A DNA stretch of 58,978 bases, taken from positions 85,978 through 144,955 of the forward strand of contig JBBUDU010000003.1 in assembly GCA_038057125.1 (NCBI GenBank). The letters are read 5' to 3'. This document shows positions 8,268 to 16,263 of the stretch, one piece after another. The notes under the pieces are model-generated. The model searched no databases. It worked only from the letters and a program-made list of their open reading frames with translations, and was not told where the DNA came from. Position 1 is the stretch's first letter. Every line of letters begins with the position of its first letter. Position numbers and translations under genes: made by a program. This stretch comes from Patescibacteria group bacterium (GTDB lineage: Bacteria; Patescibacteriota; Minisyncoccia; Phycocordibacterales; UBA1550).

Positions 8268-9005
8268 CTACTTTACCCCATAACTTGGGGTTTCAAGTAC
8301 GTTTGTTTCTATTTCAATATCATCTCCGTGCGCACCTTGAGTTACCGCTATCATTCCCTGTTTTACGAGTTCAAGCATAGCGAGGAAACTCACGATTATG
8401 TTCACCTTCTCCTCCTTACCCACTCCTGCAAACTCTCGAAAACTCATTTTCAAACTTCCGGTAATACGTGCGGTGAGTCGGTCCATCATATCTTCAAGCG
8501 AGATTACTTTTTTCACCACCACTTTCGGAAGTGTGATTTTTTTAGGGAAATGTAGAATTACATCTCGCATCGCAGAAAAAATGCTTTGCGTGGAAATTTC
8601 CGCACTGGGAGCAAAAACCGCTTCATGCGCGCGCGTAGCCCCTTTTGGAAACGAAACATTTGTGCCAAACATTTGCTTCACACGAACCGAAAGTTCGCGG
8701 ATTTTCTGGTACTCCTTGAGGCGACGCTCGAGCTCATCAATATCCTGTGTTTCTTCTTCGGTCAAAGAAAGTGTTGGCAAAAGCGACTTCGATTTAATGA
8801 GAATAAGTGTCGATGCGACAATTAAAAAATTTGAAACAAAATCCACCGGCATTTTTTCAAATGTTTTCAAGTGCAGAATATAGTCATCTGCAACAGTCGC
8901 AAGCGAAATCTCATTGATGAAAAGCTTTTTCTTTTCCACCAAGTCAAGCAAGAGCTCAAGCGGCCCTTCAAACGCTTCCGTTTTAATTACATACGGAGTA
9001 TCCAT
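8268..9005 (-). CDS. scpA: segregation and condensation protein A (kleisin)
   Basis: N-terminal FEGPLELLLDLVEKKKL motif typical of ScpA. Paired with scpB. Confidence 0.8.
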   Translation of the reverse strand: MDTPYVIKTEAFEGPLELLLDLVEKKKLFINEISLATVADDYILHLKTFEKMPVDFVSNFLIVASTLILIKSKSLLPTLSLTEEETQDIDELERRLKEYQKIRELSVRVKQMFGTNVSFPKGATRAHEAVFAPSAEISTQSIFSAMRDVILHFPKKITLPKVVVKKVISLEDMMDRLTARITGSLKMSFREFAGVGKEEKVNIIVSFLAMLELVKQGMIAVTQGAHGDDIEIETNVLETPSYGVK

Positions 9006-9010
9006 AGTTT

Positions 9011-10339
9011 TTATTCTGAAAGAAGATTGTCGATACGGTTTAGGTCGCGAGGAAAGAGAGTTGCCTGCTTCACATTTTCGAGTCCGAGAAATTTTGCCGT
9101 GAGACGCTCTAGCCCAAGCCCAAGCCCGCCATGCGGAGGCATTCCATATTTGAAGGCCTGCAAGTAATAGCGAAACTTTTCTGGATCAAGATTTTTGTTT
9201 TTCATGGACTGAACGAGCGTATCATAATCATGAATACGTTGAGCAAGTGTAGTGATTTCTATTCCACGGAAAAGGAGGTCTCCACCCTTTGCGTAACCAG
9301 GATCATTTTCATCCTCGTGAGTGTAAAACGGACGCTTTGTAATTGGGAAGTGTGTTATGAAAATGAAATCAGAATTAAATTCACGCTTGGAATACTCACA
9401 AAGGAAACGCTCGTGTGCTGGCTCTAGATCAGGCTCCTTTGTGCAGTCCTCCCCTGTTTCTTTTTTAATAACCTCCTGAGCCTCGCGGAGTTTCATTGCA
9501 GGAATTTTTTCTGGTATCTCGGGAATTGTAGCGCCAAAAAGCGCAAACTCAGCTGAACATTTTTCTTTGAGCTCCTTTGTTATATGCGCTAGAACACGAT
9601 TCTCCATATTCATGACATCTGTATGATCCTTGATGAATCCCATTTCTAGATCAAGACTTGTGTACTCGTTTAGATGTCTTGTAGTACTGTGCTTTTCAGC
9701 TCGGTACACATTGCCTGTTGAAAATACGCGCTCAAATACGCCAACCATTATTTGTTTATATAGCTGAGGGCTCTGCGCGAGATGCGCCGTGTGTCCAAAA
9801 TACTCAATATTAAATGAGTCTGCACCGCCCTCGGCGTCCTCACCAATAAGCTTAGGTGCCTGAAACTCAGTAAATCCTTCGCCTACAAGAAAGTTGCGAA
9901 AAGCATGGATAATAACAGCTTGAACCTTAAACACTGCGTGAGCTTTTTCTTCGCGGAGCGTAAGTGGAAGATAATCAAGATATGTATCTAGGTTAATATC
10001 TGTTCCAAGTTCAAACGGCAACTCTTTAGCTTTGCTTAGCACCTCAATATTCAAAACCTCAAGCTCAATGTCACCATTAAAAACGTCTGCTTTGATATTG
10101 CGTTCGGGGCGCTTGTTTACATGGGCGGAAACACTGACAACCCACTCTGGGCGTACACGCTGTGCCGTCTCAAGAGCTTCAACGTGACTAGGTAGGACCA
10201 CCGCCTGCACCTTACCACTCATATCTCTCATATCAAGAAAGACCATTTTGCCTTGATCTCGACGGACATCAATCCATCCTGAAATGGTAACTTCTTTTCC
10301 GATGTTATTTTTTAAATCTTTAATGTATGTTCGTTCCAT
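9011..10339 (-). CDS. aspS: aspartyl-tRNA synthetase, short archaeal/eukaryal type (possibly non-discriminating)
   Basis: Class IIb motifs: OB-fold N-terminus (ISGWIDVRRDQGKMVFLDMRD), FRAEKHSTTRHLNEYTSLDLEM, GGLGLGLERL. About 440 aa from the Met at 10339. AsnRS is not formally excluded. Confidence 0.75.
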   Translation of the reverse strand: MERTYIKDLKNNIGKEVTISGWIDVRRDQGKMVFLDMRDMSGKVQAVVLPSHVEALETAQRVRPEWVVSVSAHVNKRPERNIKADVFNGDIELEVLNIEVLSKAKELPFELGTDINLDTYLDYLPLTLREEKAHAVFKVQAVIIHAFRNFLVGEGFTEFQAPKLIGEDAEGGADSFNIEYFGHTAHLAQSPQLYKQIMVGVFERVFSTGNVYRAEKHSTTRHLNEYTSLDLEMGFIKDHTDVMNMENRVLAHITKELKEKCSAEFALFGATIPEIPEKIPAMKLREAQEVIKKETGEDCTKEPDLEPAHERFLCEYSKREFNSDFIFITHFPITKRPFYTHEDENDPGYAKGGDLLFRGIEITTLAQRIHDYDTLVQSMKNKNLDPEKFRYYLQAFKYGMPPHGGLGLGLERLTAKFLGLENVKQATLFPRDLNRIDNLLSE

Positions 10340-10343
10340 AATT

Positions 10344-10610
10344 TTAGTGGTAAAATTTACTCTGTATTTCATCGAGTGCTTCTTCGCGAGTCTTATCATT
10401 TATGAGCCTCTCAATCAAGTCACTTTTTGGATCATCTATAATCTCTCGAAAACGCGCGCTATTTGAGGCAATCCACGCCTCGGCAAAGTCATCTCCGCCA
10501 GCCCTTCTAATGAGTTCCATTTGCGCGCCCTGTATAATTTCAAATTTACTTTGTTCGGGGTCGATAAATGACTCAGTTTTACCAACAATTTTTTCAAAAA
10601 AATTTTTCAT
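10344..10610 (-). CDS. hypothetical acidic protein, 88 aa
   Basis: Fills the gap between trpS and aspS exactly. No family recognised. Confidence 0.4.
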   Translation of the reverse strand: MKNFFEKIVGKTESFIDPEQSKFEIIQGAQMELIRRAGGDDFAEAWIASNSARFREIIDDPKSDLIERLINDKTREEALDEIQSKFYH

Positions 10611-10614
10611 ATTA

Positions 10615-11631
10615 TTACATTACTAATCCCATTTTTTCTCGCATTTCTTTCATTGTTTTTGCGACCACCACACGCCCGCGATCGGTACCTTCTTTTATGA
10701 TAGTCCTTACAAGGTTTTCGTTTTCCTCGTAATACTTTCTCTTTTCTCTTATAGGCTCGAGAAAATCATCAAGGACTTTATAAAGAATTTCCTTAACTTC
10801 CACATCTTTTATACTTCCCTCTCGATAACGTCTTTTTAATTCTTCGTTTTGTTGCTTATTACTATTAAAAGCATCCAAGTAAATAAAAACGGGGTTCCCT
10901 TCGACTTTTCCAGGATCATTGGCGTGAATTCTGCCAGGGTCAGTATACATTTTCATGACTTTCTTTTTTAAACTATCGGGACTTTCCGATAGATTAATCG
11001 TATTTCCTAAGGACTTACTCATCTTTTCTTTGCCGTCAGTGCCTTTTAAACGAGGGAAATCAGATATTAGACTTTGAGGAAGTACGAATAAATCCCCGTA
11101 TATACGATTAAAATTCCTGGCTATCTCCCTCGCCTGTTCTATCATGGGAGACTGGTCTTCGCCGATAGGAACAAGATTAGCATTAAAACCAAGAATATCA
11201 GCAGCTTGGCTAATTGGGTATATGAAAAATCCTACCGGTAAAGAGCCACGAAATCCTTTTTTCTTGATCTCCTCTTTAACTGTCGGGTTTCTCTCTAGTT
11301 CCGCTACTGTAATTAAATTCATAAAATATACAGTCATTTCAAATAATTCAGGAATTTGCGATTGCAAGACAATAGATGTTTTTTGAGGGTCAATTCCAAC
11401 ACTTAAGTAATCGATGGTCACAGTAATTATATTCTGGGAGATCTTTTCCGAGTGCTCAAAATTATCAGTCATAGCTTGAACATCAGCGATAAGTATGTAT
11501 TGTTCATACTCATCCTGAAGCTTTATCCTGTTAATTAAAGAACCCAAATAATGCCCCAAGTGCAAAGGGCCGGTAGGTCTGTCTCCAGTTAAAATTCGTT
11601 TTTTTCTATTATTTTGATTCTTATCTTCCAT
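10615..11631 (-). CDS. trpS: tryptophanyl-tRNA synthetase, divergent subtype, full length
   Basis: TGDRPTGPLHLGHYLGS (HIGH) and KMSKSLGN (KMSKS). 338 aa. Visibly more AT-rich than flanking genes. Confidence 0.88.
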   Translation of the reverse strand: MEDKNQNNRKKRILTGDRPTGPLHLGHYLGSLINRIKLQDEYEQYILIADVQAMTDNFEHSEKISQNIITVTIDYLSVGIDPQKTSIVLQSQIPELFEMTVYFMNLITVAELERNPTVKEEIKKKGFRGSLPVGFFIYPISQAADILGFNANLVPIGEDQSPMIEQAREIARNFNRIYGDLFVLPQSLISDFPRLKGTDGKEKMSKSLGNTINLSESPDSLKKKVMKMYTDPGRIHANDPGKVEGNPVFIYLDAFNSNKQQNEELKRRYREGSIKDVEVKEILYKVLDDFLEPIREKRKYYEENENLVRTIIKEGTDRGRVVVAKTMKEMREKMGLVM

Positions 11632-11744
11632 TGAATTTCATTATACAAAAAAATGAGGAATGACGCTACTTTCACCGTAATATCTCAGTAATATTGAATG
11701 GCCCTTGTCTACAGAAAGTATAAGCAGAGCAAACATTAAGCACT

Positions 11745-11773
11745 CAAACAAAAACCCCACATAAGTTTTGTTC
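11745..11773 (-). terminator. rho-independent terminator after the radical SAM gene
   Basis: An 11-bp stem, ccccacataag/cttatgtgggg, followed on the minus strand by TTTTTGTTTG. Confidence 0.7.
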
Positions 11774-11798
11774 TTATGTGGGGGAGAGTTGAAATCCT

Positions 11799-12908
11799 TC
11801 AAAACGAAGGTGGTGCTACACCAAATAGATTACAGAGAGACATGAAAGAATCTCTTTCTTCTGCCGGTAAAATCGGAAGAATTTCTTTTTCTACAAGAGG
11901 CAACAAGGAACAACATTTTGGATCAGGGCTAAAGATAGAGCCTGTCAGATACTGCGAATCAGCGCGACAACCACCACCGCAGATTCTTAAATACCGACAA
12001 CTAACGCACTCAGAAATCTCTCGAACCTTCATTGAGTAAAAAGGGTTGCCTTTGGAAGTTGAGTATGCAACTTTTAGAGATGTTCCCTCCCCTACATGCG
12101 CAGTTTTTAGATTATAGGCAGCGCAAACATTGACATCACCGTTCGGCTTTACGCACACGATATCTCGATAACAACATGGGTGCATATTGATATCAAATTC
12201 ATGATATGGAACGCTAGCAATTTGTGACTTGTAAATGTTCGCAATACCTAACCGAAACGGCCGCTTATCCTCAAGGTAAAGCTTGAGCAATTCCTTCACC
12301 ATGGCTATTACTTTGAAGTACGGTGGTATACCAAACTCAGCTGGTGCCTTTTTGTAAAGGTCAGAAGAAAAAGGGATGTCCAAATTCCACCAGTTGATAC
12401 CTAAAACCTTAAGCCTTTGGTAGAGAGGCAAGATGTCATCCATATTGCTATTATTAATCATTGTCACAACAGCTAATGGAATCTCTGATTCTTCCTTAAC
12501 CATCCTTATCCTCTCAAGTACTAGTTGGTGGTTACCATTTCCCCTGAATGAATCATGAGAGTTGAACCCGTCCAAGCTGAGCCGAATAGCTCTCAGTTTT
12601 CCAGTACCAACTAACTTTTTAAAACGATCTTTTGTTAGTAAATGACCATTAGTCAGCAAGATTACCGGGGCATTACAGGCGTTGATAAGCTCAATAAGCA
12701 TATCGCAATTACCGCGCTGATAAAGAAGCGGTTCCCCTCCTGAAAAATTGAAACGCTCACATTGCAAGGCGTTGGCTTCTTCTATTAACCGCAACCATTC
12801 CTGATGAGTCAGTTCCTTACTTTTGGTGGATGGCAGATTGTATACTTCGTTGTAGCAATGAGCACAACCCAGATTGCATTTTCCAGTTAACTCCAAGTGC
12901 ATAAACAT
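11799..12908 (-). CDS. radical SAM enzyme with C-terminal SPASM domain (peptide-maturase-like)
   Basis: CNLGCAHC (CX3CX2C) at residues 11-18. C-terminal Cys pattern C..CVKPNGDVNVC, CVSCRYLRICGGGC (CX2CX5CX3C), then KCC. RBS AAAGGAG 6 nt before the ATG. Confidence 0.85.
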   Translation of the reverse strand: MFMHLELTGKCNLGCAHCYNEVYNLPSTKSKELTHQEWLRLIEEANALQCERFNFSGGEPLLYQRGNCDMLIELINACNAPVILLTNGHLLTKDRFKKLVGTGKLRAIRLSLDGFNSHDSFRGNGNHQLVLERIRMVKEESEIPLAVVTMINNSNMDDILPLYQRLKVLGINWWNLDIPFSSDLYKKAPAEFGIPPYFKVIAMVKELLKLYLEDKRPFRLGIANIYKSQIASVPYHEFDINMHPCCYRDIVCVKPNGDVNVCAAYNLKTAHVGEGTSLKVAYSTSKGNPFYSMKVREISECVSCRYLRICGGGCRADSQYLTGSIFSPDPKCCSLLPLVEKEILPILPAEERDSFMSLCNLFGVAPPSF

Positions 12909-12940
12909 ACGGAACTCCTTTCGCTTTTAGGTTACAAAGA

Positions 12941-12973
12941 GGGGGTATCGATTTCAAAAAAATCGATACCCCC
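12941..12973 (-). promoter_or_regulatory. perfect 13-bp-stem hairpin between the peptide ORF and the radical SAM gene
   Basis: gggggtatcgatt / aatcgataccccc with a 7-nt loop. Only a weak T-tract (TCTTTGT) follows on the minus strand. Confidence 0.6.
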
Positions 12974-12990
12974 AAGTGTTTGCCACTTCG

Positions 12991-13140
12991 TTATATGTCG
13001 CACCAATGTCCCTTAAGCACAATGCCGCCCTCTTTTTGAATTGGGGCAACTGGTGTCGCAGGCTTCGGTACTACGGGCTTTTGAACAACCGCTCCTTGCA
13101 AAAGGACAGGTTGCTTCAGGGGCTGCGTCTGCATTTGCAT
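12991..13140 (-). CDS. candidate RiPP precursor peptide, 49 aa (MQMQTQPLKQPVLLQGAVVQKPVVPKPATPVAPIQKEGGIVLKGHWCDI)
   Basis: Hand-translated and below the ORF-track size cutoff. AGGAG lies 7 nt upstream of the ATG. The ORF sits immediately upstream of the rSAM/SPASM gene and has its own promoter. Pro/Val/Gln-rich leader, Gly-Gly, short C-terminal core. Confidence 0.5.
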   Translation of the reverse strand: MQMQTQPLKQPVLLQGAVVQKPVVPKPATPVAPIQKEGGIVLKGHWCDI

Positions 13141-13211
13141 GATAAGTCTCCTAACAAGGAACGCTGGCATCGTCGAGGGCTCTCAACTTAAAACACCAAC
13201 ACCTAGTGGAA

Positions 13212-13239
13212 AGTATACCTTAATATGACACAAAGTCAA
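13212..13239 (-). promoter_or_regulatory. sigma70-like promoter for the peptide-rSAM operon
   Basis: On the minus strand: TTGACT, 16-nt spacer, TATACT. About 70 nt upstream of the peptide ATG, inside the 3' end of the trpS remnant ORF. Confidence 0.55.
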
Positions 13240-13492
13240 CCTTTACAATACCAGATATCGTCTTTTTAGGGTCTATGCCTATGGCGAGATAATCCATCGC
13301 GAGGTCAAGCGTAAGTTTTTTGAGGAGAACGCCGTCTGACACGCTCGTGAGCGCGTGATAGTTGGCAATAAAAATAAACTGGCGATAGTTACCCTGTTGG
13401 TTAACAAACTGGCGCATAGCTCCAAAATAGTTACCAATATGAGCCGTCCCCGATGGTTGCACCGCCGAAAGTAGTGTTTTCTGCATTTCCAT
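13220..13492 (-). pseudogene. trpS: 5' remnant of a canonical bacterial-type trpS (first ~79 codons)
   Basis: LSAVQPSGTAHIGNYFGAMRQFV...YLAIGIDPKKT matches the TrpRS N-terminus including HIGH. Similarity stops near 13255 and a stop codon follows 11 codons later. Confidence 0.7.
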
Positions 13493-13655
13493 ATACTACC
13501 AGAAGCGAGTGATTTTCAAAAGGTTTGTCACTGAGTAGATGTTCAGGCGCCACATATACGAGGAGCCTAGAAATTTTTTGAGAAAGATGTACACATAGTA
13601 CTTCGACGAAAAAAATTTAGTAGCGACAAAGTAGATGGGGATGTGTGGACATCTA

Positions 13656-14690
13656 CTACTTGCCTGAAATACGGAGCAGAGCAAGCTCGAGAGAAAGCCC
13701 CGGGACTTTCGCCACCCGCACGGACTCATAGGCGCGCAGGAATTCGGCAAGCTCTTTTGACGTCAATGTATGCGTTGCGTTCTTTGCAAGATCTTCAATA
13801 ATTGTCATATCTTCTGTCGGAAAATCCTCGGCAAGGCGCTTTGCAGAGCCCGCCACAAAACGAAACATCATTACCGCGCGCATTTTGCGGAGAAGTAAAT
13901 CAAGAAAAACTTTTTCTTCTACTCCTTGTTCAACTGACTTTGCAAGGGTCGAAAGTCCTGTCTCGACATCGCGCGCCACCACCGCGCGGAGGAATGAATT
14001 TACAATGCGACTATCGGGCGCGCCAGTTGCCGATTCCACTTCTTGTTGAGAAATCTTTTTGCCCGCGGATGCCGCTATGACTTTTTGAAGGATGCCGTAT
14101 GTATCACGAAACGAACCATCGCCAAGAAGCGCAATGAGGTCCGCCGATGCAGGCTCAAGTGTGTAGCCCTCTTGTTTGATTACACGTTCCACCATTACTT
14201 TGAGCGTTGCCTGTGAAGGCTTCTCAAAACGAAAACTCTGGCAACGCGAAACGATTGTTTCAGGAATTTTGCCCTCATCGGTTGTAGCAAGAATGAACAC
14301 AACGTGCTTTGGTGGTTCTTCAAGAGTTTTTAAAAGCGCAGGAAATGCTTCGCGCGAGAGCATGTGCGCTTCATCAATAATATATACTTTGTATTGCGAG
14401 TGCATCGGCACGGTGTGCACCGCGTCCCTAAGAGCGCGTATGTCATCAATGCATCGATTGGACGCTGCATCAATCTCATAAATATCATCATCGTGCGCCC
14501 CAATAGCCCGCGCAAAAATACGCGCGATTGAAGTCTTGCCTGTACCGCGAGAACCGGAAAAAAGATACGCGTGCCCAATAGAACCCGCCTTAATAGCGCC
14601 CAAAAGTGTTTTTATGGTTTGCTCTTGTCCGATGACCTCTTCAAAAGTTTTCGGGCGATATTTGGTATAAAGTGCGAGGCTTGAGGACAT
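13656..14690 (-). CDS. dnaX: DNA polymerase III gamma/tau subunit (short form)
   Basis: Walker A GSRGTGKTS, DEAHML box, SRCQSF sensor motif. 344 aa. Confidence 0.85.
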   Translation of the reverse strand: MSSSLALYTKYRPKTFEEVIGQEQTIKTLLGAIKAGSIGHAYLFSGSRGTGKTSIARIFARAIGAHDDDIYEIDAASNRCIDDIRALRDAVHTVPMHSQYKVYIIDEAHMLSREAFPALLKTLEEPPKHVVFILATTDEGKIPETIVSRCQSFRFEKPSQATLKVMVERVIKQEGYTLEPASADLIALLGDGSFRDTYGILQKVIAASAGKKISQQEVESATGAPDSRIVNSFLRAVVARDVETGLSTLAKSVEQGVEEKVFLDLLLRKMRAVMMFRFVAGSAKRLAEDFPTEDMTIIEDLAKNATHTLTSKELAEFLRAYESVRVAKVPGLSLELALLRISGK

Positions 14691-14710
14691 TGTAACAACA
14701 GTATAACAAA

Positions 14711-15733
14711 CTAAAGTGACTTGAGAAAATCCCGCACAATGCGCTCCACCTCGTCGGCATTTTTCGCATCCATCATTTGCACGCGAAGTTCTTTTGCGCC
14801 GTCAAATCCGTTTACATAAGCCTTGTAGTGCTTTTTCATAATTGCGAAATTTTTAATGTCGCCCAAAAGTTTTTCAAAGAGGTGCGTGTGCTCGATGAGT
14901 ATATTGAATTTTTCTTCAAGCGTTGGGGGTGCGGTGCGGTTGCGGTCAAAAAGCCACGGCGTGCCAAACATCGCGCGACCGAGCATCACGCCGTCTGCAT
15001 CAGTCTCTCGTGCTTTAGTGTGCGCATCAGTGAGGTCTCGTGCATCGCCATTGCCGATTATGAGCGTACCAGTACCCTCCGCAAGTTTTACAGCGCGCGC
15101 GACCTCTTCCCACCGCGCTGGCACGAGTGAAAGTTCTTTGCGTGTGCGCGCATGCACGGTAATAGCTGCGGGCTTGGTCTCAAGTATCGCGCCAATCCAC
15201 TCTTCGAGGTTTTCTTTATTATATCCAATGCGAGTTTTAACCGACACGGGCAAACCACCTGCACCCGCCATTGTCGCACGGATTACTTCTTGCGAAAGTT
15301 TCAAATTTTTTATATGTGCCGCACCAGCGCCTTGTTTCTCAATGCCTTTATCGGGGCAACCCATATTGATATCAATGCCGTCAAAACCGAGAGACTTGGC
15401 GAGTTCGGCTGTCTTTTTCATATTTTCCGGATTTGAACTAAAAATCTGCGCGACAATAGGGTGCTCGCGCTCGCTGAATGCAAGGTCTCGCTTCAAAATC
15501 TCGCGACCCGCACTACACAAGCCGTCCGCAGAAACAAACTCAGTCCAAAACACATCGGGGCCGCCTCCCGCTTCACCATGACGACTATACTTTGAAATCA
15601 TCTGGCGAAAGGCTGCATCCGTCACATCCGCCATCGGCGCAAGCGCAAAAAAGGGTTTCTTGAGATCTGCCCAAAAACCCATAATAGGTCCGCTAGCACT
15701 TGTTTGTTTCACTTCTTCTTTCATACGTGGCAC
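14711..15733 (-). CDS. dus: tRNA-dihydrouridine synthase
   Basis: FFALAPMADVTD start, DGIDINMGCP motif, TVHARTR motif. Confidence 0.85.
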   Translation of the reverse strand: MPRMKEEVKQTSASGPIMGFWADLKKPFFALAPMADVTDAAFRQMISKYSRHGEAGGGPDVFWTEFVSADGLCSAGREILKRDLAFSEREHPIVAQIFSSNPENMKKTAELAKSLGFDGIDINMGCPDKGIEKQGAGAAHIKNLKLSQEVIRATMAGAGGLPVSVKTRIGYNKENLEEWIGAILETKPAAITVHARTRKELSLVPARWEEVARAVKLAEGTGTLIIGNGDARDLTDAHTKARETDADGVMLGRAMFGTPWLFDRNRTAPPTLEEKFNILIEHTHLFEKLLGDIKNFAIMKKHYKAYVNGFDGAKELRVQMMDAKNADEVERIVRDFLKSL

Positions 15734-15751: not shown

Positions 15752-16180
15752 CTACTTCAAAAAAGTAAATTCGTTTACAATTCTTTTTTGTGTATTTTCA
15801 AGAGAGGTTTTTAGGTCTTCTACCGTGCTAAACTGCTGGTAAAAATAGGGGGTTGTCTGAGGTCCGCCATAAACATGGAGATGAAAATGTCGCACATCCT
15901 GAGCGTCTTCCCCATTTACTTGATGTAAAATAATAGACGTATACCCAAATATTTTTTTTAAAATAACCGCAGATTGTTGCGCAAGTGACATAACAGCAGA
16001 GAGTTCTTCTTCTGAAATATCGAAAATATCGTTTGCATGATGTTTTGGGATAATCAATAGGTGCCCTTCTGTTGCTGGCTCACGATCAAGAAATGCAACA
16101 GCAAAAGAGTTTTCATCAACAATATAAGCAGGTGCTTCCTTTGCTGCAATCGCACAAAAAATATCTTTATGGGGAGTCAT
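15752..16180 (-). CDS. HIT-family nucleotide hydrolase/transferase
   Basis: Histidine triad HFHLHVYG. Start placed at Met16 of the track ORF. Confidence 0.8.
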   Translation of the reverse strand: MTPHKDIFCAIAAKEAPAYIVDENSFAVAFLDREPATEGHLLIIPKHHANDIFDISEEELSAVMSLAQQSAVILKKIFGYTSIILHQVNGEDAQDVRHFHLHVYGGPQTTPYFYQQFSTVEDLKTSLENTQKRIVNEFTFLK

Positions 16181-16263
16181 GTGTATACAATAAAGCAAAA
16201 GTAAATAAAAAAGAAGAGCAAACACAATGTTTGCTCTTCAAAGGAACCAGACGCCTTTTATCG

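What the first reader, a model, noticed from the sequence alone, without database searches (positions are those of the whole stretch)
11745..13239. Unannotated 49-codon ORF plus radical SAM/SPASM enzyme form a self-contained, minimal RiPP-like operon
Seen in the sequence:
- A minus-strand ORF at 12991-13140 is too short for the supplied track. It encodes MQMQTQPLKQPVLLQGAVVQKPVVPKPATPVAPIQKEGGIVLKGHWCDI.
- AGGAG lies 7 nt before its ATG.
- A TTGACT, 16-nt spacer, TATACT promoter lies about 70 nt upstream.
- 82 nt downstream sits a 369-aa gene with CX3CX2C at residues 11-18 and a full C-terminal SPASM cysteine pattern (CX2CX5CX3C plus flanking Cys).
- A clean terminator closes the unit at 11745-11773.

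Established knowledge: rSAM/SPASM enzymes encoded next to a short ORF are the hallmark of sactipeptide, ranthipeptide, streptide and PQQ/mycofactocin-type peptide maturation.

Unusual points:
- The unit has only two genes.
- The enzyme has no N-terminal RRE/PqqD-like extension, because the SAM cluster starts at residue 11.
- No protease, transporter or immunity gene is nearby.
- The host looks like a reduced-genome organism, in which RiPP loci are rarely described.

Inference: this is a peptide-modification system of an uncharacterised subtype.
Basis: partly seen in the sequence, partly recalled or inferred. Interest (0 to 1): 0.85.

Follow-up and report, generated by a model that had tools for sequence, protein, structure and literature searches.

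The report
Tiny peptide, radical-SAM enzyme, matching tRNA synthetase
The short ORF and the radical SAM enzyme are real, but they belong to a conserved three-part module with a tryptophanyl-tRNA synthetase gene: relatives pair an 8-13-codon peptide gene with the synthetase for the amino acid in the peptide's variable spot, which points to an undescribed family of peptides that act on tRNA synthetases.

Summary
The 49-codon ORF, its SD and promoter, the 82-nt gap, the 369-aa rSAM/SPASM gene and the terminator are all present.

The reading "self-contained two-gene operon, no immunity gene" does not hold.
- Only the last ~9 codons (VLKGHWC) are conserved. In most relatives the gene is an 8-10-codon leaderless mini-ORF (MVLKGHWC..), with synonymous codon variation, a strong SD and usually a stable hairpin after it.
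- A TrpRS gene lies in the same locus in all 11 distinct W-type loci long enough to show it, directly beside the pair in nine, in every order and orientation. In the window it is the TrpRS II-type gene at 10615-11631.
- The cassette sits inside a truncated standard trpS (13220-13492).
- Sister clades of the enzyme carry MxLKGHC(T/S)D with CysRS, MVLKNKQPS with ProRS, and ..PLKGHLNDC.. with an AsnRS-like gene. One W-to-C switch inside the W clade has a CysRS directly beside it.

Best explanation (inferred): an RRE-less rSAM/SPASM maturase modifies the mini-peptide into a synthetase-directed compound, and the linked synthetase is the insensitive or replacement copy. This parallels microcin C and the tiarins, but with different enzymes. 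The chemistry and the target are untested. No exporter is present. I found no description in the literature I searched.

The parts
13212..13239 (-). Promoter-like site TTGACT-16 nt-TATACT in front of the peptide gene. Its -35 lies inside the non-TrpRS tail of the trpS remnant ORF.
   Evidence: 10 of 12 matches, best in 10300-13700. Conserved with L198 from about 13247 onward.
12991..13140 (-). Precursor peptide gene, 49 codons: a 39-residue P/Q/V/K-rich N-terminal extension plus the core IVLKGHWCDI. SD AGGAG lies at 13148-13152.
   Evidence: The homologous 49-codon ORF in L198 gives leader pN/pS 0.21/0.60. A 43-codon version is in L088.
12991..13023 (-). Conserved core (I)VLKGHWC + DI + stop, equal to the whole mini-ORF MVLKGHWC(0-2 aa) of most relatives. 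An internal GTG at 13018-13020 is preceded by AAAGAGGG, which resembles the SD of the short forms.
   Evidence: Codons vary synonymously between loci. Core pN 0.04.
12941..12973 (-). Perfect 15-bp hairpin followed by TCTTTGT, between the peptide gene and the enzyme gene. Terminator- or attenuator-like, or a transcript stabiliser.
   Evidence: (-30.4 kcal/mol, z -5.56). A hairpin at the same place but with a different sequence is present in most relatives. The stem differs between the window and L198 while pairing is kept.
11799..12908 (-). RRE-less radical SAM/SPASM enzyme, 369 aa. It has the CX3CX2C cluster at C11/C15/C18 and seven conserved SPASM-region Cys.
   Evidence: AF2 model pLDDT 92.6. 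Fold neighbours are PqqE, SkfB, SuiB and anSME (TM 0.70/0.70), plus CteB. Sequence-profile neighbours are CteB, SkfB, anSME, SuiB and PqqE.
11745..11783 (-). Intrinsic terminator after the enzyme gene: 11-bp stem at 11783-11755 and T-tail to 11745.
   Evidence: (-23.9 kcal/mol, z -4.8).
10615..11631 (-). Full-length tryptophanyl-tRNA synthetase of the TrpRS II type, 338 aa, with HIGH-like HLGH and KMSKS motifs. This is the third conserved component. Its GC content is lower than the flanks.
   Evidence: TIGR00233 278 bits, cut-off 177. (D. radiodurans TrpRS II 1YI8/2A4M, E 2e-119). (35-38% GC against 43-52% in the flanks). A TrpRS of this type is in the locus of every W-type relative.
13220..13492 (-). 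Remnant of the resident standard (type I) trpS. Residues 3-78 are TrpRS and the last ~12 codons are read from cassette/junction DNA. The rest of the gene is absent from the window.
   Evidence: TIGR00233, profile positions 1-78. (best matches are standard bacterial TrpRS 3M5W and 3PRH; TrpRS II is near the bottom). (only two TrpRS matches in the window). Junction at about 13245-13258.

Best explanation
The locus is a three-part cassette that has landed in, and replaced, the resident trpS gene. It consists of a tiny ribosomal peptide, an RRE-less radical SAM/SPASM maturase and a TrpRS II-type tryptophanyl-tRNA synthetase.

Shown:
- The conserved peptide is (M/I/L)-V-L-K-G-H-W-C plus 0-2 residues.
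- It is under strong purifying selection.
- It has its own strong SD, and usually a stable hairpin separates it from the next gene.
- It travels with the enzyme and a TrpRS gene in every gene order.
- In sister clades of the enzyme, the residue(s) just after the conserved L-K motif change together with the neighbouring synthetase: W with TrpRS, C with CysRS, P with ProRS, N with an AsnRS-like gene.

Inferred:
- The enzyme binds the short peptide directly through the invariant N-terminal M-V-L-K(-G-H) and uses a 5'-deoxyadenosyl radical to modify the region around Trp7-Cys8. Candidate reactions are a thioether or C-C cross-link, or oxidation of the Cys.
- The hairpin yields an abundant short peptide transcript, as in mccA.
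- The product, perhaps after trimming by aminopeptidases, presents the Trp-containing warhead to TrpRS and inhibits it.
- The linked TrpRS II-type enzyme is the insensitive copy that keeps the producer alive. This would explain why the sensitive resident type-I trpS could be destroyed.
For: Peptide
- The core is found at every close enzyme homologue.
- Synonymous codon variation occurs under an identical peptide.
- Core pN/pS is 0.04/0.69 and leader pN/pS is 0.21/0.60.
- Mini-ORFs have strong SDs and most are followed by stable hairpins with z from -3.3 to -7.

Enzyme
- It is rSAM plus SPASM with invariant Cys.
- Its nearest solved relatives by sequence profile and by fold are peptide or protein maturases: CteB, SkfB, anSME, SuiB, PqqE.
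- It matches no equivalog.

Synthetase link
- A TrpRS gene lies in all 11 distinct W-type loci: window, L002, L005, L086, L087, L088, L089, L091 group, L092, L112, L196. Orders seen are co-directional, reversed, convergent and mini-ORF-last.
- CysRS lies in all 5 informative C-type loci.
- ProRS lies beside all 3 MVLKNKQPS loci.
- An AsnRS-like gene lies beside the LKGHLNDC peptide.
- The enzyme tree splits by peptide/synthetase type. L004 (MVLKGHCCSG), nested in the W clade, has a CysRS directly beside the mini-ORF and still has a TrpRS three genes further on.
- 80 TrpRS II-type loci from other genomes have neither the enzyme nor the mini-ORF.

Replacement
- The type-I trpS remnant abuts the cassette promoter.
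- The cassette trpS has foreign GC content.

Precedents
- Tiarins: the BGC-encoded aaRS matches a core residue, the aaRS and a GNAT give immunity (bioRxiv 10.64898/2025.12.02.691738).
- Microcin C: a 7-codon gene plus an intergenic terminator (PMC4231749).
- L004 also carries a GNAT and an M20 peptidase.
Against: - No exporter, protease or other immunity gene is in the minimal cassette or its neighbours in the window.
- No modification, inhibition or resistance has been measured.
- Cassette-linked TrpRS show no shared active-site substitutions relative to 80 other TrpRS II-type enzymes.
- They are not clearly monophyletic in a crude NJ tree. They look like ordinary members of a widespread TrpRS subfamily.
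- In these small genomes the linked synthetase is probably the only copy. In tiarin producers, by contrast, the BGC copy is always a duplicate.
- The position of the cognate residue is not fixed. W and C come directly after K-G-H, whereas P and N are one residue later. W-type peptides also carry an invariant Cys without a CysRS.
- The N type rests on a single locus.
- Four mini-ORFs lack a strong downstream hairpin.
Confidence: 0.42

Rival explanations
1. The synthetase is a biosynthetic partner rather than a target or immunity gene. It would supply aminoacyl-tRNA or an aminoacyl-adenylate for a step in making the product, as SerRS VlmL does for valanimycin or as Cys/Trp-tRNA do in PEARL pathways. 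Alternatively it would bind the peptide and present it to the rSAM enzyme, much as D. radiodurans TrpRS II partners with nitric oxide synthase.
For: The tight linkage to the synthetase and the match between peptide residue and synthetase fit this reading equally well. The cassette TrpRS look like ordinary active enzymes. The tiarin preprint itself names tRNA-dependent biosynthesis as the alternative reading of a BGC-encoded aaRS. TrpRS II is reported to work with a Trp-modifying enzyme (PMC9437257).
Against: The minimal cassette has no aminoacyl-tRNA-using transferase (no PEARL, Fem or cyclodipeptide synthase-like gene). The cognate residue is already encoded in the peptide. A housekeeping synthetase elsewhere could supply aa-tRNA without any linkage.
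Confidence: 0.15
2. The product is a self-directed regulator or ligand of the cell's own synthetase. It would act as a translation brake or cofactor tied to Fe-S, SAM or anaerobic status, and not as an exported antibiotic.
For: No exporter is present. The linked synthetase is probably the only copy in these reduced genomes, since the window holds only a remnant of a second one. The peptide is more conserved than the enzyme, as expected for a ligand of a conserved protein.
Against: This does not explain why acquiring the cassette goes with destruction of the resident type-I trpS. It also does not explain why L004 adds a GNAT and a peptidase, which are typical self-protection genes. No known precedent exists for such a regulator.
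Confidence: 0.15
3. It is an ordinary rSAM-modified peptide, such as a signal or an antimicrobial with another target. Its closeness to synthetase genes would then reflect co-transfer or genomic hitch-hiking only.
For: Enzyme-plus-peptide pairs of this kind are common. The K-x-x-W spacing recalls Lys-Trp cross-linked peptides, and SuiB is among the fold neighbours.
Against: Four different synthetase families each match a residue in the variable part of the peptide. This holds across about 20 distinct loci, in several lineages within Patescibacteria plus a Lachnospiraceae, and in all gene orders. The W-to-C switch with a gained CysRS is hard to explain by chance.
Confidence: 0.1
4. The mini-ORF is a cis-acting leader peptide. 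Ribosome stalling at the Trp (or Cys) codon would control the hairpin terminator and so the expression of the downstream genes, as in trp or pheST attenuation or TnaC.
For: The ORF is short and contains the cognate codon. It is followed by a terminator-like hairpin and lies next to the cognate synthetase gene.
Against: The mini-ORF lies downstream of both genes in the L091 group, L008, L009, L010 and L013, and is convergent with the enzyme gene in L007. The full peptide sequence, not only the cognate codon, is conserved from Patescibacteria to a Lachnospiraceae, with synonymous variation. No alternative anti-terminator was evident. No Rfam element was found.
Confidence: 0.03

Closest known systems
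Tiarins: trifolitoxin-like Trojan-horse aaRS inhibitors (bioRxiv 10.64898/2025.12.02.691738)
   Same: Both are ribosomal peptide families in which the specificity of a cluster-encoded aaRS matches a particular residue of the core peptide. Several aaRS specificities occur within one family. A GNAT is sometimes present (L004 here). The precursor has a strong SD and lies next to the enzymes.
   Different: Tiarins are defined by the TfxB/TfxC FMN-dependent dehydrogenases with RRE domains, a conserved Gln that becomes a fluorophore, and 23-65-aa precursors with leaders. Their producers also keep a housekeeping aaRS copy. Here the enzyme is a single RRE-less rSAM/SPASM protein. The conserved motif is M-V-L-K(-G-H). 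Most precursors are 8-13 residues without a leader. The hosts are mostly Patescibacteria, where the linked aaRS seems to be the only intact copy.
Microcin C and McC-like peptidyl-nucleotides (PMC4231749, PMC8323819)
   Same: Both have a leaderless mini-gene of only a few codons, and an intrinsic terminator or hairpin between the peptide gene and the enzyme gene. The N-terminal part of the peptide probably serves as the recognition or uptake handle. An aaRS is the (proposed) target. Distant relatives of the enzyme (L011, L012) sit next to ThiF/MccB-like genes.
   Different: McC needs the MccB adenylyltransferase acting on a C-terminal Asn and targets AspRS. Its immunity comes from MccC, MccE and MccF, not from a resistant aaRS. 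The window cassette has no ThiF-like gene and no C-terminal Asn.
rSAM/SPASM RiPP maturases and protein maturases: CteB, SkfB, SuiB, PqqE, anSME, DynA/DarE
   Same: They share the CX3CX2C cluster, the SPASM domain with auxiliary-cluster Cys, the fold (TM up to 0.70 with anSME) and an adjacent short substrate gene. K-x-x-W and Cys are typical cross-link partners.
   Different: No family cut-off is reached (best 95 bits against 400). There is no RRE or PqqD partner. The substrate can be as short as 8 residues with no leader. Linkage to an aaRS is not a feature of any of these families.
Self-resistance aaRS genes in antibiotic gene clusters (indolmycin TrpRS, albomycin SerRS2, mupirocin IleRS) and D. 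radiodurans TrpRS II
   Same: A second, divergent aaRS (about 30% identity to the standard copy) is encoded next to the biosynthetic genes. The window TrpRS is about 58% identical to TrpRS II, an auxiliary TrpRS.
   Different: In those systems both copies persist. Here the standard copy is reduced to a 90-codon remnant. Resistance of the cassette TrpRS has not been tested. TrpRS II-type enzymes are widespread without any cassette.

Membership tests
Radical SAM/SPASM peptide (RiPP-type) maturase with cognate precursor | CX3CX2C radical SAM cluster motif and Radical_SAM domain | tested here: met
   C11/C15/C18 are invariant in 29 homologues. PF04055 scores 72 bits.
Radical SAM/SPASM peptide (RiPP-type) maturase with cognate precursor | SPASM domain with Cys ligands for auxiliary Fe-S clusters | tested here: met
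   C245, C262, C301, C304, C310 and C314 are invariant and C333 is nearly so. The fold matches SPASM enzymes. The Pfam SPASM model itself does not hit the window protein, but it hits relatives.
Radical SAM/SPASM peptide (RiPP-type) maturase with cognate precursor | Conserved short peptide gene co-located with the enzyme across homologous loci | tested here: met
Radical SAM/SPASM peptide (RiPP-type) maturase with cognate precursor | Leader peptide recognised by an RRE/PqqD-like domain | tested here: not met
   The SAM cluster starts at residue 11. The AF2 model shows no extra N-terminal domain. Most precursors are 8-13 residues with no leader.
Radical SAM/SPASM peptide (RiPP-type) maturase with cognate precursor | Enzyme actually modifies the peptide | not testable with these tools
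   Needs anaerobic co-expression and mass spectrometry.
Named NCBIfam rSAM/SPASM equivalogs (ScmE, PqqE, anSME, DynA, WgkB, PapB, MftC, AhbC/D, NirJ) | Whole-protein score at or above the curated cut-off | tested here: not met
   Best is ScmE at 94.9 bits against 400. anSME scores 73 against 349 and PqqE 79 against 381.
Tiarins | TfxB/TfxC-type FMN-dependent dehydrogenase pair with RRE | tested here: not met
   The window cassette holds only the peptide, rSAM and TrpRS genes. No such genes were called in the related loci.
Tiarins | Specificity of the cluster aaRS matches a defined residue of the core peptide | tested here: met
   W with TrpRS in 11 of 11 loci, C with CysRS in 5 of 5, P with ProRS in 3 of 3, N with an AsnRS-like gene in 1 of 1. 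The position shifts by one residue in the P and N types.
Tiarins | A housekeeping copy of the same aaRS elsewhere in the genome | tested here: inconclusive
   The window shows only a 90-codon remnant of a second TrpRS. Whole genomes could not be queried.
Microcin C-like peptidyl-nucleotides | MccB (ThiF-like) adenylyltransferase and a precursor ending in Asn | tested here: not met
   Both are absent from the window cassette. ThiF genes occur only next to the distant relatives L011 and L012.
Microcin C-like peptidyl-nucleotides | Mini-gene followed by an intrinsic terminator before the enzyme gene | tested here: met
   Precedent is PMC4231749.
Transcription-attenuation leader peptide | Lies in cis upstream of the regulated genes | tested here: not met
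   The mini-ORF is the last gene or is convergent in the L091 group, L007, L008, L009, L010 and L013.
TrpRS II-type (auxiliary-type) tryptophanyl-tRNA synthetase | Full-length similarity to D. radiodurans TrpRS II with class I signature motifs | tested here: met
   1YI8/2A4M at E 2e-119 over residues 10-336. HLGH and KMSKS are present. TIGR00233 is above its cut-off.
TrpRS II-type (auxiliary-type) tryptophanyl-tRNA synthetase | Insensitivity to a TrpRS inhibitor | not testable with these tools
   No cassette-specific pocket substitutions were found. Needs enzyme assays.

The most novel reading that the evidence does not exclude
A modular, previously undescribed family of radical-SAM-made mini-peptides (core M-V-L-K-x-x-[cognate residue]) in which one or two residues programme which aminoacyl-tRNA synthetase is hit. 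Each version travels with its own insensitive synthetase. In ultra-small Patescibacteria the cassette would behave like an addiction module that overwrites the housekeeping synthetase gene, as seen in the window where it sits inside a destroyed trpS. This would be a second, enzymatically unrelated invention of the tiarin/microcin C strategy. It would also be among the shortest leaderless RiPP precursors known.
Probability: 0.3. Interest if true: 0.92.

Novelty: new variant of a known kind. Interest (0 to 1): 0.8.

Why it matters
If the reading is right, this is a new way of making synthetase-directed peptides, with four consequences.
- A simple sequence rule, peptide residue equals target synthetase, would predict targets for Trp, Cys, Pro and possibly Asn enzymes, and could guide further mining.
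- It would show that an rSAM/SPASM enzyme can recognise an 8-residue leaderless substrate. That is useful for RiPP enzymology and engineering.
- It would give Patescibacteria, organisms thought to have almost no secondary metabolism, a compact three-gene weapon or control device aimed at translation.
- It would document replacement of a housekeeping synthetase gene by a cassette-borne one.

Even if the target idea is wrong, the conserved triad across four synthetase families is an unexplained functional link that is directly testable.

Tried and rejected
- **Cis-attenuator or leader peptide.** Rejected on gene order and on conservation at the peptide level.
- **Known RNA element (T-box or other).** None found in 9000-15000 at E<=1, apart from a sub-threshold manA-II match. 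Only two tRNAs were found in the whole window.
- **Membership in a named rSAM/SPASM family.** No cut-off reached.
- **Cassette TrpRS as a special resistant clade.** No shared derived residues. Not monophyletic in a crude NJ tree. 80 TrpRS II-type loci elsewhere lack the cassette.
- **Phage carriage.** No W/C-type mini-ORF in viral contigs. The single P-type pattern hit is the N-terminus of a DNA methyltransferase, so it is a chance match.
- **DNA-pattern hits without an SD or inside long ORFs** (L090, L093, L094, L098-L102, L106-L111, L113). They lack the enzyme and were treated as chance. L103 sits at a contig end and cannot be judged.
- **Distant rSAM relatives L014-L085.** No M-V-L-K mini-ORFs.
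- **The 88-aa ORF at 10344-10610 as a cassette member.** No family and no homologue at other loci.
- **Literature.** No paper holds KGHWC in a relevant sense, and none combines rSAM, TrpRS and a precursor peptide.
- **Not obtained.** Vecchione & Sello 2009 is not held. I therefore could not check whether indolmycin-resistant TrpRS belong to the TrpRS II type.
Full report
**1. The observation**

- The minus-strand ORF at 12991-13140 encodes MQMQTQPLKQPVLLQGAVVQKPVVPKPATPVAPIQKEGGIVLKGHWCDI.
- AGGAG lies at 13148-13152, 7 nt before the ATG.
- TTGACT-16-TATACT lies at 13239-13212. It is the best promoter-like match in the region at 10 of 12 positions, although such sites as a class are not enriched over shuffles.
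- 82 nt downstream starts a 369-aa gene (11799-12908) with C11-x3-C15-x2-C18 and C301-x2-C304-x5-C310-x3-C314 plus C245, C262 and C333. These Cys are invariant or nearly so in 29 homologues.
- A terminator closes the enzyme gene: stem 11783-11755 and T-tail to 11745.

- A perfect 15-bp hairpin at 12973-12941 lies between the peptide gene and the enzyme gene (-30.4 kcal/mol, z -5.6).
- A full-length TrpRS lies directly downstream at 10615-11631.
- The 90-codon N-terminal stump of a different TrpRS lies directly upstream at 13220-13492.

**2. The small ORF is a real gene, but only its tail is conserved**

The enzyme has about 30 close relatives in metagenomes.

The nearest relative, L198 (enzyme 76% identical), has a homologous 49-codon ORF, MQTQQQHHKQPAPFQGAVVQKPVVLKPAMPVVPNARTGATVLKGHWCDI. 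Its promoter and a hairpin are at the same positions, and the hairpin sequence differs while pairing is kept. Substitution counts against L198 are:

| Region | pN | pS |
|---|---|---|
| Leader | 0.21 | 0.60 |
| Core | 0.04 | 0.69 |
| Enzyme | 0.13 | 0.71 |

The long form is therefore translated and constrained. L088 (64%) has a 43-codon version ending LVLKGHWCDM.

At all other close relatives the gene is only 8-10 codons:
- MVLKGHWCDS (L002)
- MVLKGHWCEL (L005)
- MVLKGHWCGD (L086, L089)
- MVLKGHWC (L087)
- MVLKGHWCD (L091 group)
- MVFKGHWCGD (L092)
- MVLKGHWCGS (L112)
- MIVVLRGHWC (L196)

The codons differ synonymously between loci (GTT/GTC/GTG, CTT/TTA/CTC/TTG, AAG/AAA, GGA/GGT/GGC/GGG, CAT/CAC, TGC/TGT), so selection acts on the peptide. 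Nearly all have a strong SD (GGAGG-like). Most are followed by a very stable hairpin whose sequence is not conserved (z -3.3 to -7).

A degenerate DNA pattern for the mini-ORF found 3 hits in one genome per species and 21 in metagenome contigs. Every short, W-containing hit on a contig long enough to judge, nearly all of them with an SD, carried the enzyme. The other hits lay in long ORFs without an SD and are chance.

**3. The unit has three parts, not two**

A tRNA-synt_1b gene lies in the same locus as the enzyme in every W-type locus, directly beside the peptide-enzyme pair in nine of the eleven; in L196 a 280-aa unknown gene lies between the enzyme and TrpRS. In each case it is a TrpRS 48-64% identical to the window's. 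The arrangements are:

| Order | Loci |
|---|---|
| peptide, enzyme, TrpRS | window, L002 |
| TrpRS, peptide, enzyme | L005, L086, L089, L112 |
| peptide, enzyme, then convergent TrpRS | L087, L088, L092 |
| enzyme, TrpRS, peptide | L091 group |
| peptide, enzyme, unknown gene, TrpRS | L196 |

That is 11 distinct loci out of 11. Conserved neighbourhood through rearrangement is the classic sign of a functional link.

The window TrpRS is of the TrpRS II type. Its best solved relatives are D. radiodurans TrpRS II, 1YI8 and 2A4M, at E 2e-119. The upstream stump is a standard type-I TrpRS. Its best matches are C. jejuni 3M5W and B. subtilis 3PRH, and TrpRS II ranks near the bottom.

Homology between the window and L198 begins at about 13247, just before the -35. 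The stump's last ~12 codons are therefore read from cassette or junction DNA. No other TrpRS piece is in the window. The cassette trpS has 35-38% GC against 43-52% in the flanks.

So the cassette sits in, and has functionally replaced, the resident trpS.

**4. The pattern extends to other synthetases**

| Peptide | Loci | Neighbouring synthetase |
|---|---|---|
| MTLKGHCTDG | L006 (Lachnospiraceae bacterium XBB2008) | CysRS in the cluster |
| MKAPIVLKGHCSD | L008 | CysRS |
| MCIKGHCTDD | L194 | CysRS |
| MVIKGHCTDD | L195 | CysRS |
| MTLKGHCTDY | L007 | contig too short to tell |
| MVLKNKQPS (identical peptide, synonymous codons) | L009, L010, L013 | ProRS immediately upstream of the enzyme |
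| MEKENETSMPLKGHLNDCPLGDFETDCNC | L197 | AsnRS-like class II gene immediately downstream |

Two further relatives (L011, L012) instead sit beside ThiF/MccB-like genes. Their precursors are 57-60 aa long and share a CAYNSE motif.

A neighbour-joining tree of the enzymes splits cleanly into W, C, P, ThiF and AsnRS-like clades. L004 is nested inside the W clade, yet its peptide is MVLKGHCCSG. There a CysRS lies immediately upstream of the mini-ORF, a TrpRS still lies three genes downstream, and a GNAT and an M20 peptidase sit in between.

Conversely, 80 TrpRS II-type loci from other genomes have neither the enzyme nor the mini-ORF. Distant rSAM relatives have no M-V-L-K mini-ORF.

**5. What the enzyme is**

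It is an rSAM/SPASM protein with no N-terminal RRE. The AF2 model is confident (pLDDT 92.6).
- Fold neighbours are PqqE, SkfB, SuiB, ChlB, anSME (TM 0.70 both ways, same size) and CteB.
- Profile neighbours in the PDB are CteB, SkfB, anSME, SuiB and PqqE.
- No NCBIfam equivalog cut-off is reached. The best is ScmE at 95 bits against 400.

All of these neighbours modify peptides or proteins, so the peptide is the natural substrate. The invariant M-V-L-K across the W, C and P types is the likely recognition element. The chemistry is unknown. Candidates include a Cys thioether, a Lys-Trp or other C-C cross-link, and Cys oxidation.

**6. How it most likely works**

Shown: a constrained mini-peptide, a peptide-type rSAM/SPASM enzyme, a hairpin after the peptide gene, obligatory linkage to a synthetase whose amino acid occurs in the variable part of the peptide, and replacement of the resident trpS.

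Inferred:
- The enzyme modifies the peptide.
- The hairpin gives an abundant short transcript, as shown for mccA (PMC4231749).
- The product targets the cognate synthetase.
- The linked synthetase is the insensitive copy.

The logic has a close precedent in the tiarins. There the BGC-encoded aaRS matches the residue before a conserved Gln, and both the aaRS and a GNAT protect the producer. It also fits the many antibiotic clusters that carry a resistant aaRS (PMC9437257).

Weak points:
- There is no exporter.
- Cassette TrpRS show no diagnostic substitutions.
- Monophyly of the cassette TrpRS is unclear.
- The cognate residue sits one position later in the P and N types.
- The N type rests on one locus.
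- No whole-genome copy counts could be made.
- No biochemistry exists.

I put the full model at about 0.4. The weaker statement, that the enzyme modifies this peptide and the product works on or with the neighbouring synthetase, I put at about 0.7.

**7. Rivals**

- A tRNA-dependent or synthetase-assisted biosynthetic role: 0.15.
- A self-directed regulator of the cell's own synthetase: 0.15.
- An ordinary RiPP with coincidental linkage: 0.1.
- A cis attenuator: 0.03. It is largely excluded because the mini-ORF is the last gene or is convergent in several loci, and because the whole peptide is conserved.

**8. Comparison with what is known, and novelty**

It works like a tiarin or microcin C system, but it fails the defining enzyme tests for both. 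It has no TfxB/TfxC pair, no conserved Gln, no MccB and no C-terminal Asn.

It is an rSAM/SPASM peptide system, but it lacks a leader and an RRE and belongs to no curated family.

Searches of about 8 million papers and preprints found no description of the motif or of an rSAM-peptide-aaRS triad.

I class it as a new variant of a known kind: RiPP-type, synthetase-linked peptides. If the programmable-target reading is confirmed it would deserve more.

Noticed in passing
window 11640-11647 (-): An extended -10 (TGTATAAT) lies only 8 nt before the ATG of the cassette trpS (11631). No SD lies between them, so this TrpRS may be made from a leaderless mRNA started just after the rSAM terminator.
   Followed up: no
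window 10344-10610 (-): An 88-codon ORF lies between the cassette trpS and aspS. It has no Pfam family and no homologue at any fetched locus. Its GC content is as low as that of the trpS, so it may have arrived with the cassette.
   Followed up: partly
window 15752-16225 (-): A HIT-domain protein lies 2.5 kb upstream of the cassette. HIT hydrolases are reported as immunity factors against microcin C-like compounds (PMC12250964). This one is not conserved at the other loci and may simply be housekeeping.
   Followed up: no
L004 4905-11167: A variant cluster reads CysRS, MVLKGHCCSG, rSAM, GNAT, M20 peptidase, TrpRS, then a protein with a precomputed PF27054 (Beta_methylindole_red_C) hit that my own Pfam scan of the truncated ORF did not reproduce. 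The enzyme is nested in the W clade, so this looks like a W-to-C switch with extra self-protection-type genes.
   Followed up: partly
L006 4716-12437 (Lachnospiraceae bacterium XBB2008): A larger cluster in a cultured Firmicute reads MTLKGHCTDG, a 316-aa rSAM, the rSAM/SPASM homologue, a U32-family protein, an unknown 316-aa protein, CysRS, and a further rSAM/SPASM. This is the most tractable organism for experiments.
   Followed up: partly
L011 1904-4642 and L012 5600-9005: The most distant members of the enzyme clade sit beside ThiF/MccB-like genes, plus a methyltransferase in L012. Their precursors are 57-60 aa long and share ..LG..(M/L)VCAYNSE(V/I).A. The L011 leader shares the hexapeptide PLKQPV with the window's 49-aa ORF.
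   Followed up: no
L195 1530-2993: The cluster-linked CysRS is split into two ORFs of 275 and 199 aa. This is either a frameshift or assembly error, or a decaying gene.
   Followed up: no
L005 171-917: A Peptidase_S51 gene lies three genes upstream of the TrpRS-peptide-rSAM unit. S51 peptidases are reported to give resistance to microcin C (PMC9239234). This is a single case.
   Followed up: no
L002 4535-4720: A GC-rich island of about 190 nt lies in an otherwise AT-rich intergenic region between RNase J and the mini-ORF. It might be a structured RNA.
   Followed up: no
L002 and L086: Two loci share the same neighbourhood (SBP_bac_5, glucose-6-phosphate isomerase, RNase J), but the three cassette genes are in a different order and orientation. 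The cassette is therefore rearranged in place within a lineage.
   Followed up: partly
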